Under the pieces are notes generated by a model. The model made no database searches. It worked only from the letters and a program-made list of their open reading frames with translations, and had not been told where the DNA came from. Below are positions 5,346 to 35,761 of a stretch of DNA of 55,434 bases, piece by piece. The DNA is from a virus (taxonomy: Duplodnaviria; Caudoviricetes), in the IMG/VR virus record IMGVR_UViG_3300033153_009453, positions 1 to 55,434 of that record, one strand, 5' to 3'. Position 1 is the stretch's first letter; every line of letters begins with the position of its first letter. The position numbers and the translations under genes are program-made.

Positions 5346-7115
5346 TTATTCTAAAGGGATAGTATTCTTTTGTGCTCAACTAATAGTTGAAACATTTTGA
5401 GATTGATTTCTTTGTGCTGGTGGAACAAAGCTAGGGTCAGCCTCAGTTCATTGAGTTCAAGCGTTCTGTTGTTTATGGTCTTGTAATATTGATTTAGCTG
5501 TCTTTCAACTATCAGATTGTTCTGAAAGCTTTTCATAGTCAAAGCCAAACTTATCAGTAACTAATTTAGCTAACTGGGTTGCTGGTACTGGTCTACTTCA
5601 ATCAGAATTTTGCATACTTCAAACTACTTGAGCGTATTCTAATGCTTCTTGTAATTCTCTTTCTTTACTGTTTCAAAGCATTGTTTCTACGATTGGCAAC
5701 ACGTGTATTTGTCATCCTAGTAGATGCTTAGTTATCTTAGCACTTCCATATCATCAACTGTCAGAAGTAAATACTCATTCAGCGTCAATACTTCAACCTT
5801 CTATAGGTATTTCTTGACTTCAAATAGAATGGAGGAACTGTATATTTGACATTCTAATTTCTGCAAGTCTTCTATAGAAACCCCAAGCATTGTCTTTAAT
5901 GTTTTTATTAATTCTTTTCTTTGCTGATTTATTTTTACCTGCTGTCTTTGTTGCAGTCTCTCAAGATGATAATATTTGAGACCTATAGTCTACTCATGTT
6001 TGAGCAATTAAGTCTTCATCTACTTTATTTTCAGCTGAAAGTAATTCATTAACCGGAACATTAGGAGAGAATTGTTTAATTCAGTTTATATCATCTGTTT
6101 CATATACTTCTCAAATTCAGAATTGCATTTCATCTTCTTCAAGTTCTGCTGTTCTATCTTTAAGTATAATTCATATAGATGATTTTATTCATCTTATAAG
6201 AAGCGTTCTTAACTCATTCTTATACCTCTCATTCTGCTCTGTGAGTTCAAATTCACCTATTCACCAAATCCTCTCCTGTGCCTTGTTGTCCAAGTAAAGA
6301 GAAAAAGGTAACATCTTATGAGGATAAGGAATTGGTATATTTTTAATTTCAACTCAGTTGGCTTCGATTATATACTCATCTTTCGCCGAGTTCCAATACT
6401 CTATTTCCATTACAGTATTATCAGATTGCATCTCTTCAAATTCATTCCCAGTAGTTCAAGCTATTGGTGCGAAATCTCAGGTCATCTTTTTTACTTTATC
6501 TAGATTTTTTACAAAGTTATCTCATTCTTTTTCTTTGATATAATCTGTTTTATCAAAGTATCTTATAACTGCAACTTCTGTTGAGTTTCTTATATTTGTT
6601 CAGTTTATAAAGAAGTTCTGAAATGGAATACATTCTGAATATATTCAAGAATATATTAGCTTCTCTTCTTCTTTAAAATCTATTCATGTTGGGTTTCAAT
6701 CTTCATCTTCTGTATAAAAAGGAGTTTTTACTGTTTGCCGAATATGCTTAATTCAGTCAAAGAATACTCCTGTTCAGTTAGTAGTAGAGGATTGAATTGT
6801 TTCTGAGATAGCTTCATCAGTATTTGAAAGTAACCGATGGTAATCCCAAACATGCTTGGCAACCTTCCTATTAGCTCTTCATTTATCATCCATTCAAACA
6901 AACAACCATTCAGGTTGAGCTGATAACAAGTCGGCGTCCTTCTGGTACTTGATAGTAGCTCATATCTGAGTTCTAAAATCATTCTTATCAGGGGGAGTAG
7001 CCTCCTTTGCATTAGCCTTATTTCTCCGATTAGTAGCTTGTACCTGAGTTATGTGGTTCTCTTTAAGAGCCATTAGATTAGTTAATCTCTCTGTAACATA
7101 CGAGTATTTTATCAT
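5346..7115 (-). CDS. Portal protein (589 aa)
   Basis: Long ORF with TGA=Gly downstream of TerL. Size, position and Q/P/T-rich C-terminal tail fit a P22-like portal. Confidence 0.75.
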
Positions 7116-16258: not shown

Positions 16259-16343
16259 GCCACCTTAGTTCAGTGGTAGAACAAAAGTAAGCCAGCTTTG
16301 AGCTGGATACTTTCGGTCGCTGGTTCAAATCCAGCAGGTGGCA
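16259..16343 (+). tRNA. Atypical tRNA-like RNA with extended anticodon arm (apical loop CT-TTG-AG, Gln-like)
   Basis: Acceptor GCCACCT/AGGTGGC, D arm GTTC-AGTGGTA-GAAC, T arm GCTGG-TTCAAAT-CCAGC. The anticodon arm is AAAGTA-AG-CCAGCTTTGAGCTGG-A-TACTTT. No encoded CCA. Confidence 0.7.
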
Positions 16344-21164: not shown

Positions 21165-22217
21165 ATTTGCTGAATTGCCATCGTTAGATGAAAAAAGAGG
21201 CTTGCAGAAGCTTTAACTAACCAAGTAGATAGATGATTAGAATGAATGGGGGTAATAACCCCTAAGTGTTATTATAGAGCTTTATATAAGAAGCTTAAAA
21301 ATTATCTTTCTTATATAAAGAATTGTATTGAAGAAGATAGTATTTATATACTCCACCATAGAAAAGCCTCTGTAGGAGCTATATGTTTAGATAATGTCCA
21401 CCCTTTTGAGGGGGAGAGCTTTATTTTAGTTCAAAATTGAACTATTAGAAACTTTTATAAAGCATATAAAAATATTTATTGAAAGGAAACTGATACAGAA
21501 ACACTTCTTTCTTACTTGGAAGAAAAAGCTTCCTGTTTGAATGATATACCAATCATTCTCAAAGAGCTTTCAGAAACCTATAAGGAAGATTTTTGAATAA
21601 TTATAATTAAATCTAGAATTGAGGATAAAATATTATTCTATACTGATGGTAGTAGAGAAAGTTATATAGATATAAATACCACCAATAATACTATAAATGG
21701 TATTTATAACTATAATACCCATTCAGGGTATGAAAATACAGGACATATAGTGCTTTCCTATAAGGGGGTAATCTTAGAAAATACCTTTAAAAGTTTTAAT
21801 AAGAAAACATTTTATTTATATACTTCTTGAATACAGAAGAGGAAGAATGCAATAACTACTAGAACCTATTATGGGGAAGGTTGGAAGTGGGATTATCTCT
21901 CACGAAGTTATAAGTATACTCCCCCTAAAAAGGACAAGAGTAAAGTAGATGAATATGAAAAAGAAAAGGAAAAGATTAGAAACGAAGTTTCATACTTATT
22001 TGAAGAGTATAAGGCTTCTGACATGTATTGGATTATATGGGATTTTCTTGAGAATGTATGGGAGACGAAGCTCCCAACCGAGATTAATGCAAAACGGGCT
22101 TTTGTAGAATGGTATTATAATTTTAAAATTATGGATGAATATAAAAAATACCAATGTATTATGGAAAGAATAGAATGAGAGTTCTATGAAGCTTTCAAAA
22201 TTATCTTTAATAAATAA
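21165..22217 (+). CDS. Class II glutamine amidotransferase (Ntn-hydrolase; 350 aa) with apparent ATT start
   Basis: (ATT)-C-G-I...DRGLEGMG, HHRKASVG, NVHPF, VQNGTI and ETDTE. There is an in-frame TAG at 21135 and no ATG between it and the Cys. Confidence 0.8.
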
Positions 22218-22228
22218 TAAAATAAAAT

Positions 22229-23605
22229 ATGAAAGTATGAATAGAAGTAGAGCTTCATTCTAACGGTGAGAGTTTTTATGATATAAAAGACTGTCTATGA
22301 TTGAGCTTTAATTCATTTAATGAAGAATGAATTAAAATGAGTGAAGAATATTATAGAAGTACTATTGAGTTTAATTTCATGCCTATAGGATTAGATAAAA
22401 AGGAATTTAATAGAATTTCTGATTATTTAAAAGATAAAAGAGAAAGATTTAATTTGAAATTAAATTGAGGTAGACCTCAATTCACCTGAACTCATCTCCA
22501 TCTATTTGAAACCTCTTCTTTTAGAAGAAATAGATTATTAAAGTGAGTATTAAGCTTTATTAAAGATAATTTTGATGGATTAAGTAAAGGTTCTAAAGAG
22601 AGATTATTACTAGCTCACCAACTCTGGGGATTTTATGACCATAAGGTCACTAATGGAGAATGGATTAATATTATTAGGGGAAATGGATTTAATATTACTA
22701 ATTATAGTTTAAGCTATGATAAACCTAAATATAGTCCAGTAATTAAATCACCAGCCATAGAAGGATGAAAACCTTTATCAACTGAGATTAGATGTATTCC
22801 TAATGAATATATCTTTAATGGTAAAGCTTATGAGCTTTGTAGGGAAATTGAAAATGGGGAGTTATATAGGAGAGAACCCTTGGAGGCTATTGACTTTTTT
22901 AAATTCCTAATAAAGGATTTAAGATGACAAGAGGTGGTAATTCCTAGTTTATTTCATAATTCTAATGTTGACTTACTTGACCATGAGGGAATTATACGAT
23001 TAATTAACCAACATTGAAGTGAAGCTGTATTTGGCTATTCATCAATATGTAATTGATGGAATTTAAGAAATGTTTGCAGTAGATTTAACTCATTCAAAGA
23101 AGAGTTAAAGAAATTTAGATTAATTAATCAAAGATTAATCTTTAAAAATATTAATCTACTACTTAATCTTTTTAATGAACATAGCTTCAATAAAGCTAAG
23201 TTTGGTGAAATTAAAGATTATATTAATCAATTTGATAATGATGAATTTAGTAATAATTATTCTTGAAGAAGTTCTGAGTTAGTAAGAATACCTAGATTTT
23301 CAACAGAAATGATTATTGACTTTATTAAAGATATTAATAGTGAAGAAAAAGTTACAATAATAAATAACTTACTAATTTCACTTGAATGAAGAATTATATG
23401 AAATGACTTAAGGAGATTATGTGAATATGAAAATTCATTAACAGTAGAAGGAGATACTGGTGAAGTAGTTGGATTAATTCCAAACACCTTCTCTGATACG
23501 TTAGTTGAGCTAAGAAATAACTGCCTTATACCTAATAATTCATTTACGGGACAATTCTCTTACATGAGAGATTATAGTAATATTAACATTAATGACGATG
23601 AATAA
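22229..23605 (+). CDS. Second putative amidoligase (458 aa)
   Basis: MKVGIEVELH, TIEFN, FTGTHLHLF and STEIRCIPN. Confidence 0.65.
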
Positions 23606-24650
23606 ATTTAAAAGATATAATAGGATATATTCATTATTAGATAATGAGTGAAAACCTAGAGAAGAAACTGATTGAATATTGAAAGGAATTTGTAGTATTC
23701 AAGAAAAAATAGATTGATGTAATCTTTCAGTTTGGATGGAAGACTGAGAGATTAGAGTTTGAAGTAGAAGTCAAGAGGTGACTAAGGATGGCTTTAGATG
23801 AGCTGTAGACTATATTACTACCCATACAGGCATAAAAGCTCTCCTAGGGGGCTTAGAATGAGATATAAGACTATATGGTGAATGGTTAGTTCCTCATACT
23901 ATTACTAATTATTTACCAGAAGCATATAATCATTTTTACTTATTTGATATAGAGCAAGATGGAGAATTATTATCAACCTTAGAAGTTGATAATTTAGCTT
24001 CTAAATATTGAATTAAGAAACCTCATCTTATAGGGTTAATTAATAATCCTACTATTAAAGAGCTTACCTTCTTAATAGGGAAGACTTGGCTTAAATGAGA
24101 TAAGAAAGACTGAGGGGAAGGAATAGTAATTAAAAACTTAGATTTTACTAATAAATTCTGAGATACTTGCTACGCTAAAATAGTTGGTGATGACTTTAAA
24201 GAAAGTAATGCTATTGTCTTTGGTAATCATAAAAAATGAGATATTGAGATGGGGCTTGCTACTAACTTTTGTAATTTAGCAAGAGTAAAGAAAATTATAA
24301 ATAAAGTAGAGGAAACTCTAGATAGAAAAATATTAAAAACTGATATTAATCAAATAATTTGAAGAGTTCAGTATGATATTATTACCGAAGAAATCTGGGA
24401 AATACAAAAGAAATGAATAATTAGCTTTAGGCAATTAAAGTCTCTTATAGGGAGGAGGGCAGCTAGAATAGCTATTGATATTATTGAGGGGAATAAGGAG
24501 AGTGTTGCATTTAGTAATGCTCCCCAATTAAATAAGAAAGAAGAAGTTGTAGTGATTAATGAAGATTTAGATTATGCTACATATAAGGCTTTTTTAGATG
24601 AAACACAACCTATTTTACCTTTTAAAAAATTACCAGAATGAACAAAATAA
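23598..24650 (+). CDS. RNA ligase (Rnl2-like nucleotidyltransferase; 350 aa)
   Basis: Motif I QEKIDGCN, then RLYGEW, FYLFDI, GEGIVIKN and YAKIV. Confidence 0.85.
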
Positions 24651-25516
24651 TAGCTTTGAGAGGCATTCCTTGCAGCTGAAAGAGTAGCTTCGCCCAAATA
24701 AAGAAAAAAAAGGATTGAGCGAAAATATTTAATAAAGACGCTATAAGAGACAGACTTGGAATTACCCCCGAAACTTGGAGTAAGTCCGCCGAAAAGAGAG
24801 TTATAAGTGAAGAGAGAAAATGAGTAGAGAAGGCTATGGGGGAATGAAGAGAGCTTATAGTGGTTGACAATACTCATTTATGAGCCTTTAATACCCATCT
24901 TTTCTTTTATAAGGGACTAGCTAAAACCTATAATTATGAGTTTGAAGTTAAAGACTTTTACTGTAGTAGAGATGAAGCTATAGAGAGAGATAGCCTTAGA
25001 GAGAGGAAGGTAGGAGTTAAGGTTATAGATAAGATGATTAAACTCCATGGTAATTGAGGTAATGTTCCAGTATTCGCCTCTTACAGAGAACAAACGGAAG
25101 ATTTACTAAATGCTTATATATTTGACATTGACTGTACATTAGCCCAGATGGATAATAATAGAAGCCCATACGATTACTCTAAGGTTTATGAAGATAAGCC
25201 TAACCAGTATATTATTAATATAGCTAAAGACTTAGCTTTCACTAATAATATCATCGTAGTGAGTTGAAGAGAGGATAGCTGTAGGGGTGATACCATTAGA
25301 TGGTTAAAAGCCTTCTGAGTGCCTTATAGTGACCTTTATATGAGGAAGGCTTGAGATACTAGGAAGGATAGTATAGTTAAGAAGGAAATATTTGAGAATG
25401 AGATAGAGGGGAAGTATAATATATGAGGAGTATTTGACGATAGAGACCAAGTTTGCAAAATGTGGAGGTTAGAATTAAAGTTGCCCTGTCTTCAAGTTTT
25501 TTACGGGTCTTTCTAG
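24638..25516 (+). CDS. pseT: Polynucleotide kinase/3'-phosphatase (T4 PseT-like; 292 aa)
   Basis: P-loop GIPCSGKSS, HAD motif FDIDCTLA, VSGR, MRKAGDTRKD and VFDDRDQV. Confidence 0.9.
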
Positions 25517-34624: not shown

Positions 34625-35761
34625 ATGAAATTAGATATAAACAAGTTACACCCTATTCCTAAGAAAATTGGAATAAGTACATTCTGATTAGCTGTATACA
34701 GTAAACCTAATAAAGAAATAGAGGAATTTATTAATTTTCATAACCTTAAAGTAGAAGAGAGTGGAAAATATACAAATATTCTAATTTGAGAAGATTGAAA
34801 CATTTTTAACTTATTCAAGCAACCAGAACAATTTGCTTATATGGATGGATTTTCCCCAAATATAAATAAAAGTCTTCATGCTTGACATTTAGCTAACTTA
34901 GTTACAGCTAAAGCATTTCAAAAGCTGTGAATTACAGAGAAAACGATTGCATTAATGGGGGACACTTTACAATGAACTAATGAAAAATACTTAGAAGAAT
35001 ATTTTAATTTAATACATAAGTTTAAATATAAACTTCACAATACCTACTTTGCTTCAAACATGGTTTATAATTGAAGGCTTCAAGCTTGAAATGATAAATA
35101 TGAATGAACTAAAGTATTTAATATAGATTGAAATAAGATTGTATGAACTAAGAAAGATGGAAGTAGTTCTTATTTTTATCAGGATGCTGCCTTGGCAGAA
35201 TTATTAAACAAGAAAACCTTATATCTAACAGGTAGTGAACAAAATCAACACTTTGAATTATTAGGTAAAATATTTAATATAAAACATATATGATTATGAT
35301 TACTTAAACTTTCGGGCAAGAAAATGTCAAGTAGAGTTTGAAATGTTATTATGGCTAAAGATTTAGTTAAGACAGAATTGGATTATAATATCTTTGCAGG
35401 GCATATTCTTAAAAGAAACCCTAAGACAGAAAAGATTATTAATCTTGATGAACTTAATAATCCAACTTATAGCCCTTGATTATATATAAGCTATACAATG
35501 GCTAGATTGTATTCTGCAGGATGTGAAGATGAGAAATGATGTTCAGCTAGGCTAGATTATGCTTATTTAAAATCTAAGTGTAATTTAAATCCATCCATTC
35601 TATTTAACGAGTTATTTAGTTATTGTGTTTCAATCAATTCCCTATATGAAAAGAAAAGAATTAAATGAAATGCTGATAATTTAATATTGTTTTCTGATAT
35701 GTTAGGTAGCTTAACTACACAATGTGAAAGATTGGGATTATTTAAAACTAAAAAGGTATAA
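34625..35761 (+). CDS. argS: Compact arginyl-tRNA synthetase-like protein (class I aaRS; 378 aa)
   Basis: HIGH region FSPNINKSLHAGHLAN, KKDGSSSYFYQDAA, LYLTGSEQNQHF, KMSKS region HIGLGLLKLSGKKMSSRVGNVI and SPGLYISYTMARLYS, in the same order as in ArgRS. Confidence 0.85.

What the first reader, a model, noticed from the sequence alone, without database searches (positions are those of the whole stretch)
34625..35761. A 55-kb phage encodes a minimal arginyl-tRNA synthetase-like enzyme
Seen: invisible in the standard-code ORF track, a 378-aa ORF carries the ArgRS catalytic landmarks in order: FSPNINKSLHAGH (HIGH, ~34850), KKDGSSSY..QD, YLTGSEQ..HF, KKMSSRVGNVI (KMSKS, ~35318) and PGLYISYTMAR. 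Established: bacterial ArgRS is roughly 550-580 aa, and viral aaRS genes are mainly known from giant viruses and jumbo phages. Inference: the N-terminal, connective and anticodon-binding regions are much reduced, and the phage has no tRNA-Arg. The enzyme may charge host tRNAs promiscuously, charge a non-canonical RNA, feed aminoacyl groups into a modification pathway, or interact with the CGG reassignment. This is a strong candidate for an undescribed system.
Basis: partly seen in the sequence, partly recalled or inferred. Interest (0 to 1): 0.88.

Follow-up and report, generated by a model that had tools for sequence, protein, structure and literature searches.

The report
Miniature phage arginyl-tRNA synthetase
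A small phage that uses an altered genetic code carries a one-third-shortened but intact-looking copy of the enzyme that loads arginine onto tRNA; it belongs to a large, mostly giant-phage family that databases already label ArgRS but that I found described in no paper.

Summary
Under table 25, window 34625-35761 (+) is a 378-aa ORF with 17 in-frame TGA; 10 of them fall on glycine-majority columns of the family and none on tryptophan columns.

It is a real ArgRS homologue: Pfam PF00750 above cut-off, HHalign probability 99.9 against canonical ArgRS, colinear from the N-domain to the C-terminus, and Foldseek top hits ArgRS.

It is not a one-off. It belongs to a ~390-aa "mini-ArgRS" family found in 37 IMG/VR records. 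All 12 near-complete carriers are 190 kb or larger and none of the 37 has a canonical argS.

Family evidence points to ordinary tRNA-Arg charging:
- 22 of 34 tRNA genes within 500 bp are tRNA-Arg, against 11 of 186 farther away.
- The arginine-binding residues and the anticodon-domain homology are kept.
- The family is about 4-fold depleted in arginine, though this member only 2-fold.

What is special here is a complete 55-kb code-25 phage with no tRNA-Arg, with CGG read as Trp, and with an RNA ligase/PNKP pair.

This scan has flagged the same family before on other DNA.

The parts
34625..35761 (+). mini-ArgRS gene, 378 codons plus TAA, 17 TGA = Gly (protein P0001)
   Evidence: ORF; PF00750 28 bits over cut-off 23.3; TIGR00456 38.8 bits, below 261.65; family; AF2 pLDDT 91, Foldseek top hits ArgRS; HHalign 99.9%
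34625..34831 (+). reduced N-terminal (Add1-like) domain, residues 1-69, with Y49-T50-N51
   Evidence: Profile alignment to the Plasmodium ArgRS N-domain. HHalign pairs GKYTNILI with canonical GPYLN. N51 is invariant in A1 and its partner Asn is invariant in the 8 canonical sequences. No PF03485 hit for P0001 itself.
34844..34888 (+). D74-G-F-S-P-N79 ... H85-A-G-H88: arginine-binding Asp/Asn and the HIGH signature
   Evidence: Invariant columns D74, S77, P78, N79, H85, G87, H88. Aligned to yeast E148..N153..HAGH. Residue roles from PMC3956977 (passages read).
35171..35185 (+). Y183-F-Y-Q-D187, guanidinium-binding Tyr/Asp pair
   Evidence: Invariant in A1. Aligned to yeast Y347/D351. The E. coli equivalents Y313/D317 bind the guanidinium group.
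35237..35254 (+). E205-Q206-N-Q-H209-F210; Q206 is the Gln that holds the arginine main chain
   Evidence: Invariant E205, Q206, H209, F210. Q206 aligns to yeast Q375, whose role is described in PMC3956977.
35321..35335 (+). K233-M-S-S-R237, the KMSKS-type loop
   Evidence: K233, S236, G239, N240 are invariant. Aligned with canonical GKMSSRxG.
35474..35758 (+). reduced all-helical C-terminal domain (residues 284-378), homologous to the DALR anticodon-binding domain
   Evidence: Four helices in the model. HHalign is colinear to the canonical C-terminus. Family members P0169, P0161 and P0181 hit PF05746 over the equivalent stretch. P0001 itself has no PF05746 hit at E <= 1.

Best explanation
The gene encodes a functional, miniaturised class I arginyl-tRNA synthetase. 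It most likely binds L-arginine and ATP in a normal ArgRS pocket. It most likely recognises tRNA-Arg through a cut-down N-domain (D-loop A20) and a cut-down DALR-type domain (anticodon C35, U/G36), and esterifies arginine to A76.

This phage has no tRNA-Arg of its own, so the substrates would be the host's tRNA-Arg. These would be mainly AGR decoders, since 564 of the 589 Arg codons in the window's ORFs are AGA or AGG once the 27 CGA/CGG codons are set aside as probable Trp (616 counting all six Arg-box codons).

Its role would be to keep Arg-tRNA-Arg available for phage protein synthesis when host supply is limiting or shut down. The family's strong avoidance of arginine in its own sequence fits an enzyme that must still be translatable when charged tRNA-Arg is scarce.

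Shown: homology, architecture, conserved pocket residues, association with tRNA-Arg genes, arginine depletion. Inferred: catalysis, substrate, and the reason a 55-kb phage keeps it.
For: 1. Homology and fold.
- PF00750 is above its gathering score.
- HHalign A1 against 8 canonical ArgRS: probability 99.9, E = 4.6e-36, 364 columns, colinear.
- AF2 model pLDDT 91, pTM 0.90. The first 10 Foldseek PDB hits are all ArgRS, E about 1e-13, TMq up to 0.72.

2. Pocket.
- D74, N79, H88, Y183, D187 and Q206 are invariant in 28 of 28 family members.
- They align with yeast E148, N153, Y347, D351 and Q375.
- N153/Q375 and the E. coli D118/Y313/D317 equivalents are the arginine-binding residues according to PMC3956977 (passages).

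3. tRNA link.
- In 46 sources, 22 of 34 tRNA genes within 500 bp of the gene are tRNA-Arg, against 11 of 186 farther away (Fisher p = 5e-14).
- After dropping 4 near-duplicate loci the figures are 20 of 32 against 11 of 162, p = 1e-11, with 10 loci involved.
- 25 of 31 distinct tRNA-Arg genes show GGA, that is A20.

4. Sole ArgRS in phages.
- 0 of 37 IMG/VR carrier records has a match over the argS cut-off, and 36 of 37 have only the weak mini-type match.
- 5 of 5 MAGs that hold a mini copy also have a canonical argS.

5. Selection. P0001 keeps 75 of the 78 columns that are invariant in the other 27 members; the misses are W35F, L80I and S90A.

6. Arginine depletion.
- Family mean 0.87% Arg against 3.84% in neighbouring ORFs; lower in 45 of 45 loci; the lowest-Arg protein of 150 aa or more in 37 of 45.
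- Arg is the most depleted of the 20 residues, ratio 0.24.
- 29 of 121 listed members have no Arg at all.

7. Context. The window also encodes an RNA ligase and a PNKP, the T4-type tRNA-repair pair.
Against: - No biochemical data exist for any member that I could find.
- P0001 scores 38.8 bits against TIGR00456, whose cut-off is 261.65, and gives no Pfam hit for the N-terminal or DALR domains.
- About 160 residues of a canonical ArgRS are missing.
- Two arginines that are invariant in the 8 canonical sequences are absent: HxGHxR is Ser in 27 of 28 members and Ala in P0001, and a second is deleted in 28 of 28. The deleted one may correspond to E. coli R324, which props up the guanidinium-binding Asp. 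That correspondence is inferred, not aligned residue by residue.
- This phage has no tRNA-Arg, and 23 of 46 sources have no tRNA gene in their flanks at all.
- P0001 is only 2-fold Arg-depleted: 7 Arg, 1.85% against 3.88%. Five of 33 window proteins of 150 aa or more are lower, and binomial p = 0.02. The 'starvation-proof' argument is therefore weak for this particular member.
- The host is unknown, so neither its tRNA-Arg set nor its own ArgRS could be examined.
Confidence: 0.7

Rival explanations
1. The enzyme charges a non-canonical acceptor. One option is the phage's odd tRNA at 16259-16343. Another is the host tRNAs with CCG/UCG anticodons that read CGG/CGA as Trp, which would shift decoding during infection.
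For: The N-domain that reads A20 is cut to about 65 residues. The phage has an unusual tRNA with a 20-nt insert in the anticodon arm. Absconditabacteria tRNAs for CGA/CGG keep C35-G36, which are ArgRS identity elements, and are told apart by lacking A20 (PMC8629427 passages; PMC4742068 passages).
Against: The phage itself uses CGG at conserved Trp positions of its portal protein. Columns 30 and 94 are W in 33 of 37 relatives, R in 3 and G in 0, so arginylating those tRNAs would damage its own proteins. Y49-x-N51 aligns with the canonical Tyr/Asn. The odd tRNA has GGU rather than GGA in its D-loop, and its best loop reading is UUG, not an Arg anticodon. The family is spread mostly through phages that do not use table 25, next to ordinary tRNA-Arg genes.
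Confidence: 0.08
2. It is a tRNA-independent arginine-activating enzyme that feeds arginyl groups into a modification or small-molecule pathway, in the manner of aaRS paralogues such as GluQRS/YadB or MshC (examples recalled, not checked here).
For: The gene sits in the replication/nucleotide-metabolism block beside a metallophosphoesterase, a PD-(D/E)XK nuclease, a RusA-like protein and NrdD. The protein is strongly diverged from equivalog ArgRS.
Against: No protein family is a conserved neighbour: the most widespread other cluster occurs in only 9 of 46 loci. The anticodon-binding domain homology is retained. tRNA-Arg genes are the only enriched neighbours. Canonical ArgRS needs tRNA to activate arginine (PMC3956977 introduction passage).
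Confidence: 0.07
3. It is a non-catalytic tRNA-Arg or arginine binder, acting as a decoy, sensor, or shield against a tRNA-Arg-cutting defence.
For: Two canonical invariant arginines are missing. The phage carries tRNA-repair genes, which suggests pressure from tRNA-targeting defences.
Against: HIGH and the KMSSR loop, the ATP-handling signatures, are conserved across the family; H85, G87, H88, K233, S236 and G239 are invariant. A pure binder would not need them.
Confidence: 0.05
4. It is a recently captured host (CPR) ArgRS, with the host's own enzyme equally short.
For: CPR bacteria have streamlined proteins, and the host genome could not be examined.
Against: The best non-self identity in 5.8 billion proteins is 51-53%, on phage-type contigs. 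In the tree P0001 is a separate deep branch (end branch 0.54) inside the 47-row phage clade (SH-aLRT 98). Only 8 loci were found in 185,579 species genomes, none of them labelled CPR. The 17 TGA-Gly codons argue for long residence in a code-25 genome.
Confidence: 0.03

Closest known systems
Canonical class I arginyl-tRNA synthetase (Pfam PF03485 + PF00750 + PF05746; TIGR00456; PDB 1F7U, 1IQ0, 4OBY/5YYM)
   Same: Same fold and same domain order. HIGH and MSxR loops, the arginine-pocket residues, and the Tyr/Asn of the N-domain are shared.
   Different: 378 aa against 540-610 aa. The first half of Add1 is gone, about 75 residues of the insertion after HIGH are gone, and the post-KMSKS and DALR helices are trimmed. 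13-16% identity to solved ArgRS. Below the equivalog cut-off. Arg-poor, with canonical invariant Arg residues replaced or deleted.
Phage mini-ArgRS family, e.g. UniProt A0A8D9CCB2 'Arginine--tRNA ligase [uncultured marine phage]' (385 aa) and the copies in huge phages LR745206.1 and LR756504.1
   Same: 45% identity and TM 0.82 to A0A8D9CCB2. 43-47% identity over 99-100% of the query to the two 634-636-kb phage records. Same length, and 75 shared invariant columns.
   Different: The window's copy is in a complete 55-kb genome, against 190 kb or more for the 12 near-complete IMG/VR carriers. It is written in code 25, has no adjacent or genomic tRNA-Arg, has 7 Arg (family median 1-2), and has lost the family-invariant Trp.
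aaRS genes of huge phages (Al-Shayeb et al. 2020, PMC7162821; passages read)
   Same: Phage-borne synthetases alongside phage tRNAs and tRNA-repair genes, proposed to keep translation running for the phage.
   Different: [quoted passage not shown] The mini-ArgRS fails the TIGRFAM cut-off and forms its own clade, apart from the 8 canonical ArgRS used as outgroup.
Truncated aaRS paralogues with non-translational roles (GluQRS/YadB, MshC, cyclodipeptide synthases; recalled, except MshC, which appears as a weaker Foldseek hit)
   Same: A shortened class I core.
   Different: Those have lost or replaced the anticodon-binding domain or the amino-acid specificity. Here both appear to be retained.

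Membership tests
Arginyl-tRNA synthetase (class I, subclass Ia) | Rossmann-fold catalytic domain matching PF00750 above the gathering score | tested here: met
   28.0 bits against 23.3, E = 1.4e-6. Only profile positions 187-321 of 349 are in the best stretch.
Arginyl-tRNA synthetase (class I, subclass Ia) | HIGH and KMSKS-type (MSxR/K) signatures | tested here: met
   H85-A-G-H88 and K233-M-S-S-R237, in invariant or near-invariant family columns.
Arginyl-tRNA synthetase (class I, subclass Ia) | Arginine-pocket residues (E. coli D118, N123, Y313, D317, Q341) | tested here: met
   D74, N79, Y183, D187 and Q206 are invariant in A1 and align with yeast E148, N153, Y347, D351 and Q375. Roles come from PMC3956977 passages. 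Actual binding was not tested.
Arginyl-tRNA synthetase (class I, subclass Ia) | C-terminal DALR anticodon-binding domain (PF05746) | tested here: inconclusive
   P0001 has no PF05746 hit at E <= 1. However, HHalign is colinear through the canonical C-terminus, and 4 of the 9 homologues scanned that are not canonical-type, P0169, P0161, P0181 and P0182, hit PF05746.
Arginyl-tRNA synthetase (class I, subclass Ia) | N-terminal Add1 domain (PF03485) with the Tyr/Phe-Asn/Gln A20 pocket | tested here: inconclusive
   No PF03485 hit. Only the last ~25 residues align in HHalign, including Y49-x-N51 against the canonical Y-x-N. The motif's role comes from PMC3956977; the residue-by-residue equivalence is inferred.
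Arginyl-tRNA synthetase (class I, subclass Ia) | NCBIfam equivalog score (TIGR00456, 261.65 bits or more) | tested here: not met
   38.8 bits. The same holds for all 37 phage records searched: 0 of 37 over the cut-off.
Arginyl-tRNA synthetase (class I, subclass Ia) | Arg-tRNA-Arg formation | not testable with these tools
   Only indirect evidence: enrichment of tRNA-Arg genes next to family members.
Phage mini-ArgRS family (~390 aa; alignment A1) | Full-length alignment and shared invariant columns | tested here: met
   100% coverage at 45-53% identity. 75 of the 78 columns invariant in the other 27 members are kept. P0001 lies inside the 47-row clade, SH-aLRT 98.
Phage mini-ArgRS family (~390 aa; alignment A1) | Strong arginine depletion | tested here: inconclusive
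   Family 0.87% against 3.84% in neighbours. P0001 is 1.85% against 3.88%, ranking 6th lowest of 34 window proteins of 150 aa or more.
Non-translational truncated aaRS paralogues (GluQRS-type) | Loss of the anticodon-binding domain | tested here: not met
   A C-terminal helical domain homologous to DALR is retained.

The most novel reading that the evidence does not exclude
The mini-ArgRS is a purpose-built emergency synthetase. It would be a phage enzyme stripped of arginine, and of every dispensable domain, so that it can still be made and can restart arginine charging after the host's Arg-tRNA-Arg supply has collapsed through defence, stringent shut-down or the phage's own takeover.

In this 55-kb phage it would act together with the RNA ligase/PNKP pair as a compact translation-rescue kit. 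Because the phage reads CGG as Trp, its trimmed N-domain must still discriminate tRNA-Arg from the reassigned tRNA(CCG/UCG). That would make it a natural minimal model of ArgRS identity.
Probability: 0.25. Interest if true: 0.75.

Novelty: new variant of a known kind. Interest (0 to 1): 0.55.

Why it matters
If active, a 378-aa ArgRS would be, as far as I recall, well below the size of any characterised ArgRS. It would define which parts of the enzyme are dispensable for arginine activation and for tRNA-Arg identity.

The family-wide purge of arginine from an arginine-charging enzyme, together with its placement next to tRNA-Arg genes, suggests a general phage strategy for surviving a collapse of charged tRNA.

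This window adds three things. It shows the gene is not confined to jumbo phages, since the genome is complete at 55 kb. It places the gene in a host system with UGA = Gly and CGG = Trp, where ArgRS discrimination against C35-G36 tRNAs matters. And it lacks any phage tRNA-Arg, so a host tRNA must be the substrate.

All of this can be tested with ordinary enzymology.

Tried and rejected
- **Conserved protein neighbours.** All-against-all BLAST of ORFs from 45 loci plus the window found none. The next most widespread cluster is in 9 of 46 loci.

- **Single-sequence PDB search.** It gave only weak TyrRS/ArgRS HIGH-region hits, E >= 0.04. The profile search was needed.

- **PHROGs.** Only marginal hits for P0001.

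- **Fused forms.** P0219 (1077 aa) and P0142 (491 aa, Laminin_G_3 plus a partial core) carry the domain at their C-terminus, but Pfam gave no function for the extra part of P0219. Not pursued.

- **Host assignment.**
  - The NrdD search gave 65-67% identity to Flavobacteriia, which is uninformative.
  - The host is therefore inferred from the code only.

- **CGA/CGG meaning from PDB alignments.** The RusA-like protein had no hit and the kinase alignment was uninformative at the two codons. The portal alignment did answer for CGG. CGA was not tested.

- **Arg-codon leader peptide.** An earlier scan note raised a leader peptide in front of the gene. There are only 2 nt between the upstream stop (34622) and the ATG (34625), so there is no room for one here.

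- **Expression.** The look-up of sequencing runs listed 4 DNA runs with 0.06 of the words each, and no RNA holder was listed.

- **Literature.** Eight searches found no paper describing a ~390-aa phage ArgRS or arginine depletion of phage synthetases. What I read:
  - Passages only of PMC7162821, PMC7824862, PMC10746230, PMC8629427, PMC4742068, PMC3956977 and PMC9437257.
  - Only listings or abstracts for the rest.
  - Supplementary tables of PMC7162821 were not viewable and may list these genes.
  - Shimada et al. 2001 is not held. My memory that T. thermophilus Tyr77/Asn79 read A20 is recalled, not checked.
Full report
**Observation.** Under the bacterial code the stretch 34625-35761 holds only short fragments. 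Under table 25 it is one 378-codon ORF on the + strand with 17 in-frame TGA.

The choice of Gly, not Trp, for TGA is backed by the family alignment. Ten of the 17 TGA positions fall in columns where Gly is the majority among 27 homologues, and six of these are Gly in all 27, including the G of HIGH and of MSSRxGN. None falls in a Trp-majority column.

The window is a whole virus record with a 114-bp direct terminal repeat, rated 100% complete. It is a phage, with a large terminase, a primase-helicase, an endolysin-bearing tail protein and NrdD. Coding density is 0.87 under TGA-recoded tables against 0.21 under table 11. ARAGORN and Rfam agree on three tRNAs only: Thr(tgt), Met(cat) and one odd tRNA. 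There is no tRNA-Arg.

**What the protein is.** Pfam PF00750, the ArgRS catalytic domain, is hit above its gathering score: 28.0 against 23.3 bits. The NCBIfam equivalog argS is hit far below its cut-off: 38.8 against 261.65 bits.

An AlphaFold2 model built on a 28-sequence alignment is confident, with pLDDT 91 and pTM 0.90. Its ten best PDB matches are all arginyl-tRNA synthetases: yeast 1F7U, T. thermophilus 1IQ0, human 4R3Z, E. coli 5YYM and others, with E about 1e-13, TMq up to 0.72 and 13-16% identity. CysRS, MetRS and GluRS follow.

A profile-profile comparison of the family (A1) with eight canonical ArgRS (A2) gives probability 99.9 and E = 4.6e-36. It aligns mini residues 30-377 colinearly with canonical residues 54-540. 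The roughly 160 missing residues are:
- the first half of the N-terminal Add1 domain;
- about 75 residues of the insertion that follows HIGH;
- a stretch after the KMSKS loop;
- parts of the C-terminal helical domain.

The C-terminal domain is homologous to the DALR anticodon-binding domain. P0001 itself gives no PF05746 hit, but family members P0169, P0161 and P0181 do over the equivalent residues, and the HHalign alignment runs to the very C-terminus. All three functional modules of ArgRS are therefore present, each trimmed.

**Active site.** In the 28-sequence alignment 75 columns are invariant. They include D74, S77, P78, N79, H85, G87, H88, Y183, D187, E205, Q206, H209, K233, S236, G239 and N240.

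The profile alignment to yeast ArgRS pairs D74 with E148, N79 with N153, Y183 with Y347, D187 with D351 and Q206 with Q375. According to the E. coli ArgRS structure paper, N123 and Q341 (yeast Asn153 and Gln375) hold the arginine main chain, and D118, Y313 and D317 hold the guanidinium group, with R324 propping up D118 (PMC3956977, passages). The spacings match: D to N is 5, N to the second His of HIGH is 9, and Y to D is 4.

[quoted passage not shown] HHalign pairs the mini Y49-T-N51 with the canonical Y-x-N, whose Asn is invariant in the eight canonical sequences. I could not verify that these are the same residues.

**The family.** P0001 has 211 homologues at E <= 1e-3 in the word-indexed search. 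Nearly all are 385-400 aa, 41-53% identical over the full length. Twelve of the 120 listed carry JGI's name 'arginyl-tRNA synthetase'.

The exhaustive profile search of 1.84 billion cluster representatives finds 1823 proteins at E <= 1e-3 and 99 at E <= 1e-30. The strong ones are almost all 360-440 aa. Canonical 540-610-aa ArgRS appear only from about 1e-18.

Other collections:
- IMG/VR holds 37 loci on contigs of 11-676 kb.
- The 50,697 GenBank phage records hold two, both unannotated 634-636-kb 'uncultured phage' genomes.
- BFVD holds a 385-aa 'Arginine--tRNA ligase [uncultured marine phage]' at 45% identity and TM 0.82.
- Among 185,579 species genomes a motif scan found only 8 loci, all in MAGs.

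In the five MAGs I checked, a canonical argS (544-594 aa, over the cut-off) is present as well. In one case it lies on the same 522-kb contig. By contrast, none of the 37 viral records has a canonical argS, and 36 have only the weak mini-type match.

Among those records the 12 that are at least 90% complete are all 190,865 bp or larger. The window's complete 55-kb genome is therefore an outlier.

I built a quick maximum-likelihood tree of 68 rows:
- the window;
- 43 locus proteins of 340 aa or more, with L043 and L045 left out as partial;
- 16 hand-picked representatives;
- 8 canonical ArgRS as outgroup.

It puts all 60 mini proteins on one side of a branch with SH-aLRT 100. P0001 is a separate, fairly deep lineage (end branch 0.54) inside a 47-row clade with support 98, and it is in no smaller well-supported group. 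With only eight canonical sequences and a root imposed on them, monophyly against all cellular ArgRS is not proven.

**What it works on.** No protein family is a conserved neighbour; the most widespread other cluster is in 9 of 46 loci. tRNA genes are a different matter.
- Across 45 loci plus the window, 220 tRNA genes were found.
- Of the 34 within 500 bp of the mini-ArgRS gene, 22 are tRNA-Arg. Of the 186 farther away, 11 are (Fisher p = 5e-14).
- After dropping four near-duplicate loci the figures are 20 of 32 against 11 of 162, p = 1e-11, spread over 10 loci.
- The anticodons are tct, cct, acg and tcg.
- 25 of 31 distinct tRNA-Arg sequences have A directly after G18-G19, that is A20. Bacterial ArgRS identity rests on A20, C35 and G/U36 (PMC4742068, passages).

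Against this, 23 of the 46 sources, the window not among them, show no tRNA at all in their flanks. The window's nearest tRNA is a tRNA-Met 2.7 kb away.

Taken together with the absence of any other ArgRS in the phage records, the simplest reading is that this is the phages' working ArgRS for ordinary tRNA-Arg.

**Arginine depletion.**
- Mean Arg content is 0.87% against 3.84% in the other ORFs of the same loci. It is lower in 45 of 45 loci and is the lowest of all proteins of 150 aa or more in 37 of 45.
- Ten of 45 have no Arg, and 29 of the 121 proteins have none.
- Arg is the most depleted of the 20 residues, at ratio 0.24; Trp is next at 0.47.
- The eight canonical ArgRS have 3.1-6.7% Arg.

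Four arginines are invariant in those eight. Their fate in the family is as follows:
- The one after HIGH is Ser in 27 of 28 members, and Ala in P0001.
- One is deleted in all 28.
- The MSxR arginine is kept in 18 of 28.
- The YxxAR arginine is kept in 23 of 28.

P0001 is at the relaxed end, with 7 Arg (5 AGA, 2 AGG), 1.85% against 3.88% for the window. Five of 33 other large window proteins are lower, and binomial p = 0.02. P0001 is nonetheless under constraint: it keeps 75 of the 78 columns that are invariant in the other 27 members.

**Setting in this phage.** The gene lies in the + strand replication/nucleotide block. It sits 2 nt after a PD-(D/E)XK nuclease gene, and its stop overlaps the start of an 88-aa ORF. 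Upstream are a class II glutamine-amidotransferase-domain protein, an RNA ligase (PF09414) and a polynucleotide kinase-phosphatase, the T4-type tRNA-repair pair.

**Genetic code.** The phage's code goes beyond table 25. The portal gene has three CGG codons.
- In an alignment with 37 relatives, columns 30 and 94 are W in 33, R in 3, Y in 1 and G in 0.
- That is the pattern of true Trp columns, not of Gly columns, which show W/G mixtures because the database read TGA as W.
- The third column is aromatic-rich: Y 10, R 7, W 5.
- In a 91%-identical relative, codon 30 is TGG.

This matches the Absconditabacteria code, UGA = Gly and CGA/CGG = Trp, reported by Shulgina and Eddy (PMC8629427, passages). 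That paper notes the reassigned tRNAs are distinguished from tRNA-Arg by lacking A20.

The mini-ArgRS gene contains no CGA or CGG. The family is spread through phages that mostly do not use table 25, so I see no evidence that the enzyme serves the reassignment. The reassignment does, however, require that the enzyme not charge C35-G36 tRNAs lacking A20. That fits the retained Tyr/Asn motif and is a sharp bench test.

The gene is a member of a large phage family of miniature ArgRS. That family is auto-annotated as ArgRS in public databases, is undescribed in the papers I could search (eight searches, listed under Tried and rejected), and has already been flagged several times by this scan on other DNA. 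It most likely charges tRNA-Arg, here the host's.

What this window adds is the smallest complete carrier genome I saw, a code-25/CGG = Trp setting, and the absence of any phage tRNA-Arg.

Noticed in passing
window 5346-7115 (-), codons 30, 94, 126; 27 CGA/CGG codons window-wide: CGG sits at conserved Trp columns of the portal protein: W in 33 of 37 relatives, R in 3, G in 0. Codon 30 is TGG in the 91%-identical L046. The phage therefore appears to read CGG as Trp in addition to TGA as Gly, so table 25 mistranslates these codons. CGA was not tested.
   Followed up: partly
window 16259-16343 (+): A tRNA (Rfam 57.8 bits) with 20 nt where the 7-nt anticodon loop should be. The insert can extend the anticodon stem (CCAG/CTGG) and present a loop CUUUGAG, giving anticodon UUG. 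ARAGORN cannot name it. The D-loop has GGU, not GGA.
   Followed up: partly
window 23592-24650 (+) and 24638-25516 (+): Overlapping RNA ligase (PF09414, E = 6e-21) and polynucleotide kinase-phosphatase (AAA_33 + HAD_PNKP, E = 9e-46) genes, a T4-like tRNA-repair pair in a 55-kb phage. They are preceded by a class II glutamine-amidotransferase-domain protein (21246-22217) and a 458-aa protein with no family hit.
   Followed up: partly
P0219 (1077 aa) and P0142 (491 aa): Longer proteins carry a mini-ArgRS-like part at the C-terminus. P0219 residues 738-1075 follow 737 residues with no Pfam hit. P0142 has a Laminin_G_3 domain in front of a partial core. These could be fusions or gene-calling chimeras.
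   Followed up: partly
G041:C14 (the record that holds L007): A canonical argS (at about 19.3 kb) and a mini-ArgRS (at about 496 kb) lie on the same 522-kb MAG contig. Several IMG/VR carriers are classed 'provirus'. Some mini-ArgRS copies may therefore sit in integrated elements rather than free phages.
   Followed up: no
window 34625-35761, protein P0001: The protein contains no tryptophan at all. The one Trp that is invariant in the 27 other aligned family members is Phe (TTT) here.
   Followed up: no
L006, L017/L018, L021, L041, L043 (flanks of the mini-ArgRS in large phage contigs): Dense tRNA arrays of 16-26 genes in 20 kb. They include several that ARAGORN reports with 2-nt 'anticodons', some 85-93-nt forms of tRNAs that are normally short (Asn, Thr, Met, Cys, Val), and CTA-anticodon tRNAs in L026 and L035.
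   Followed up: no
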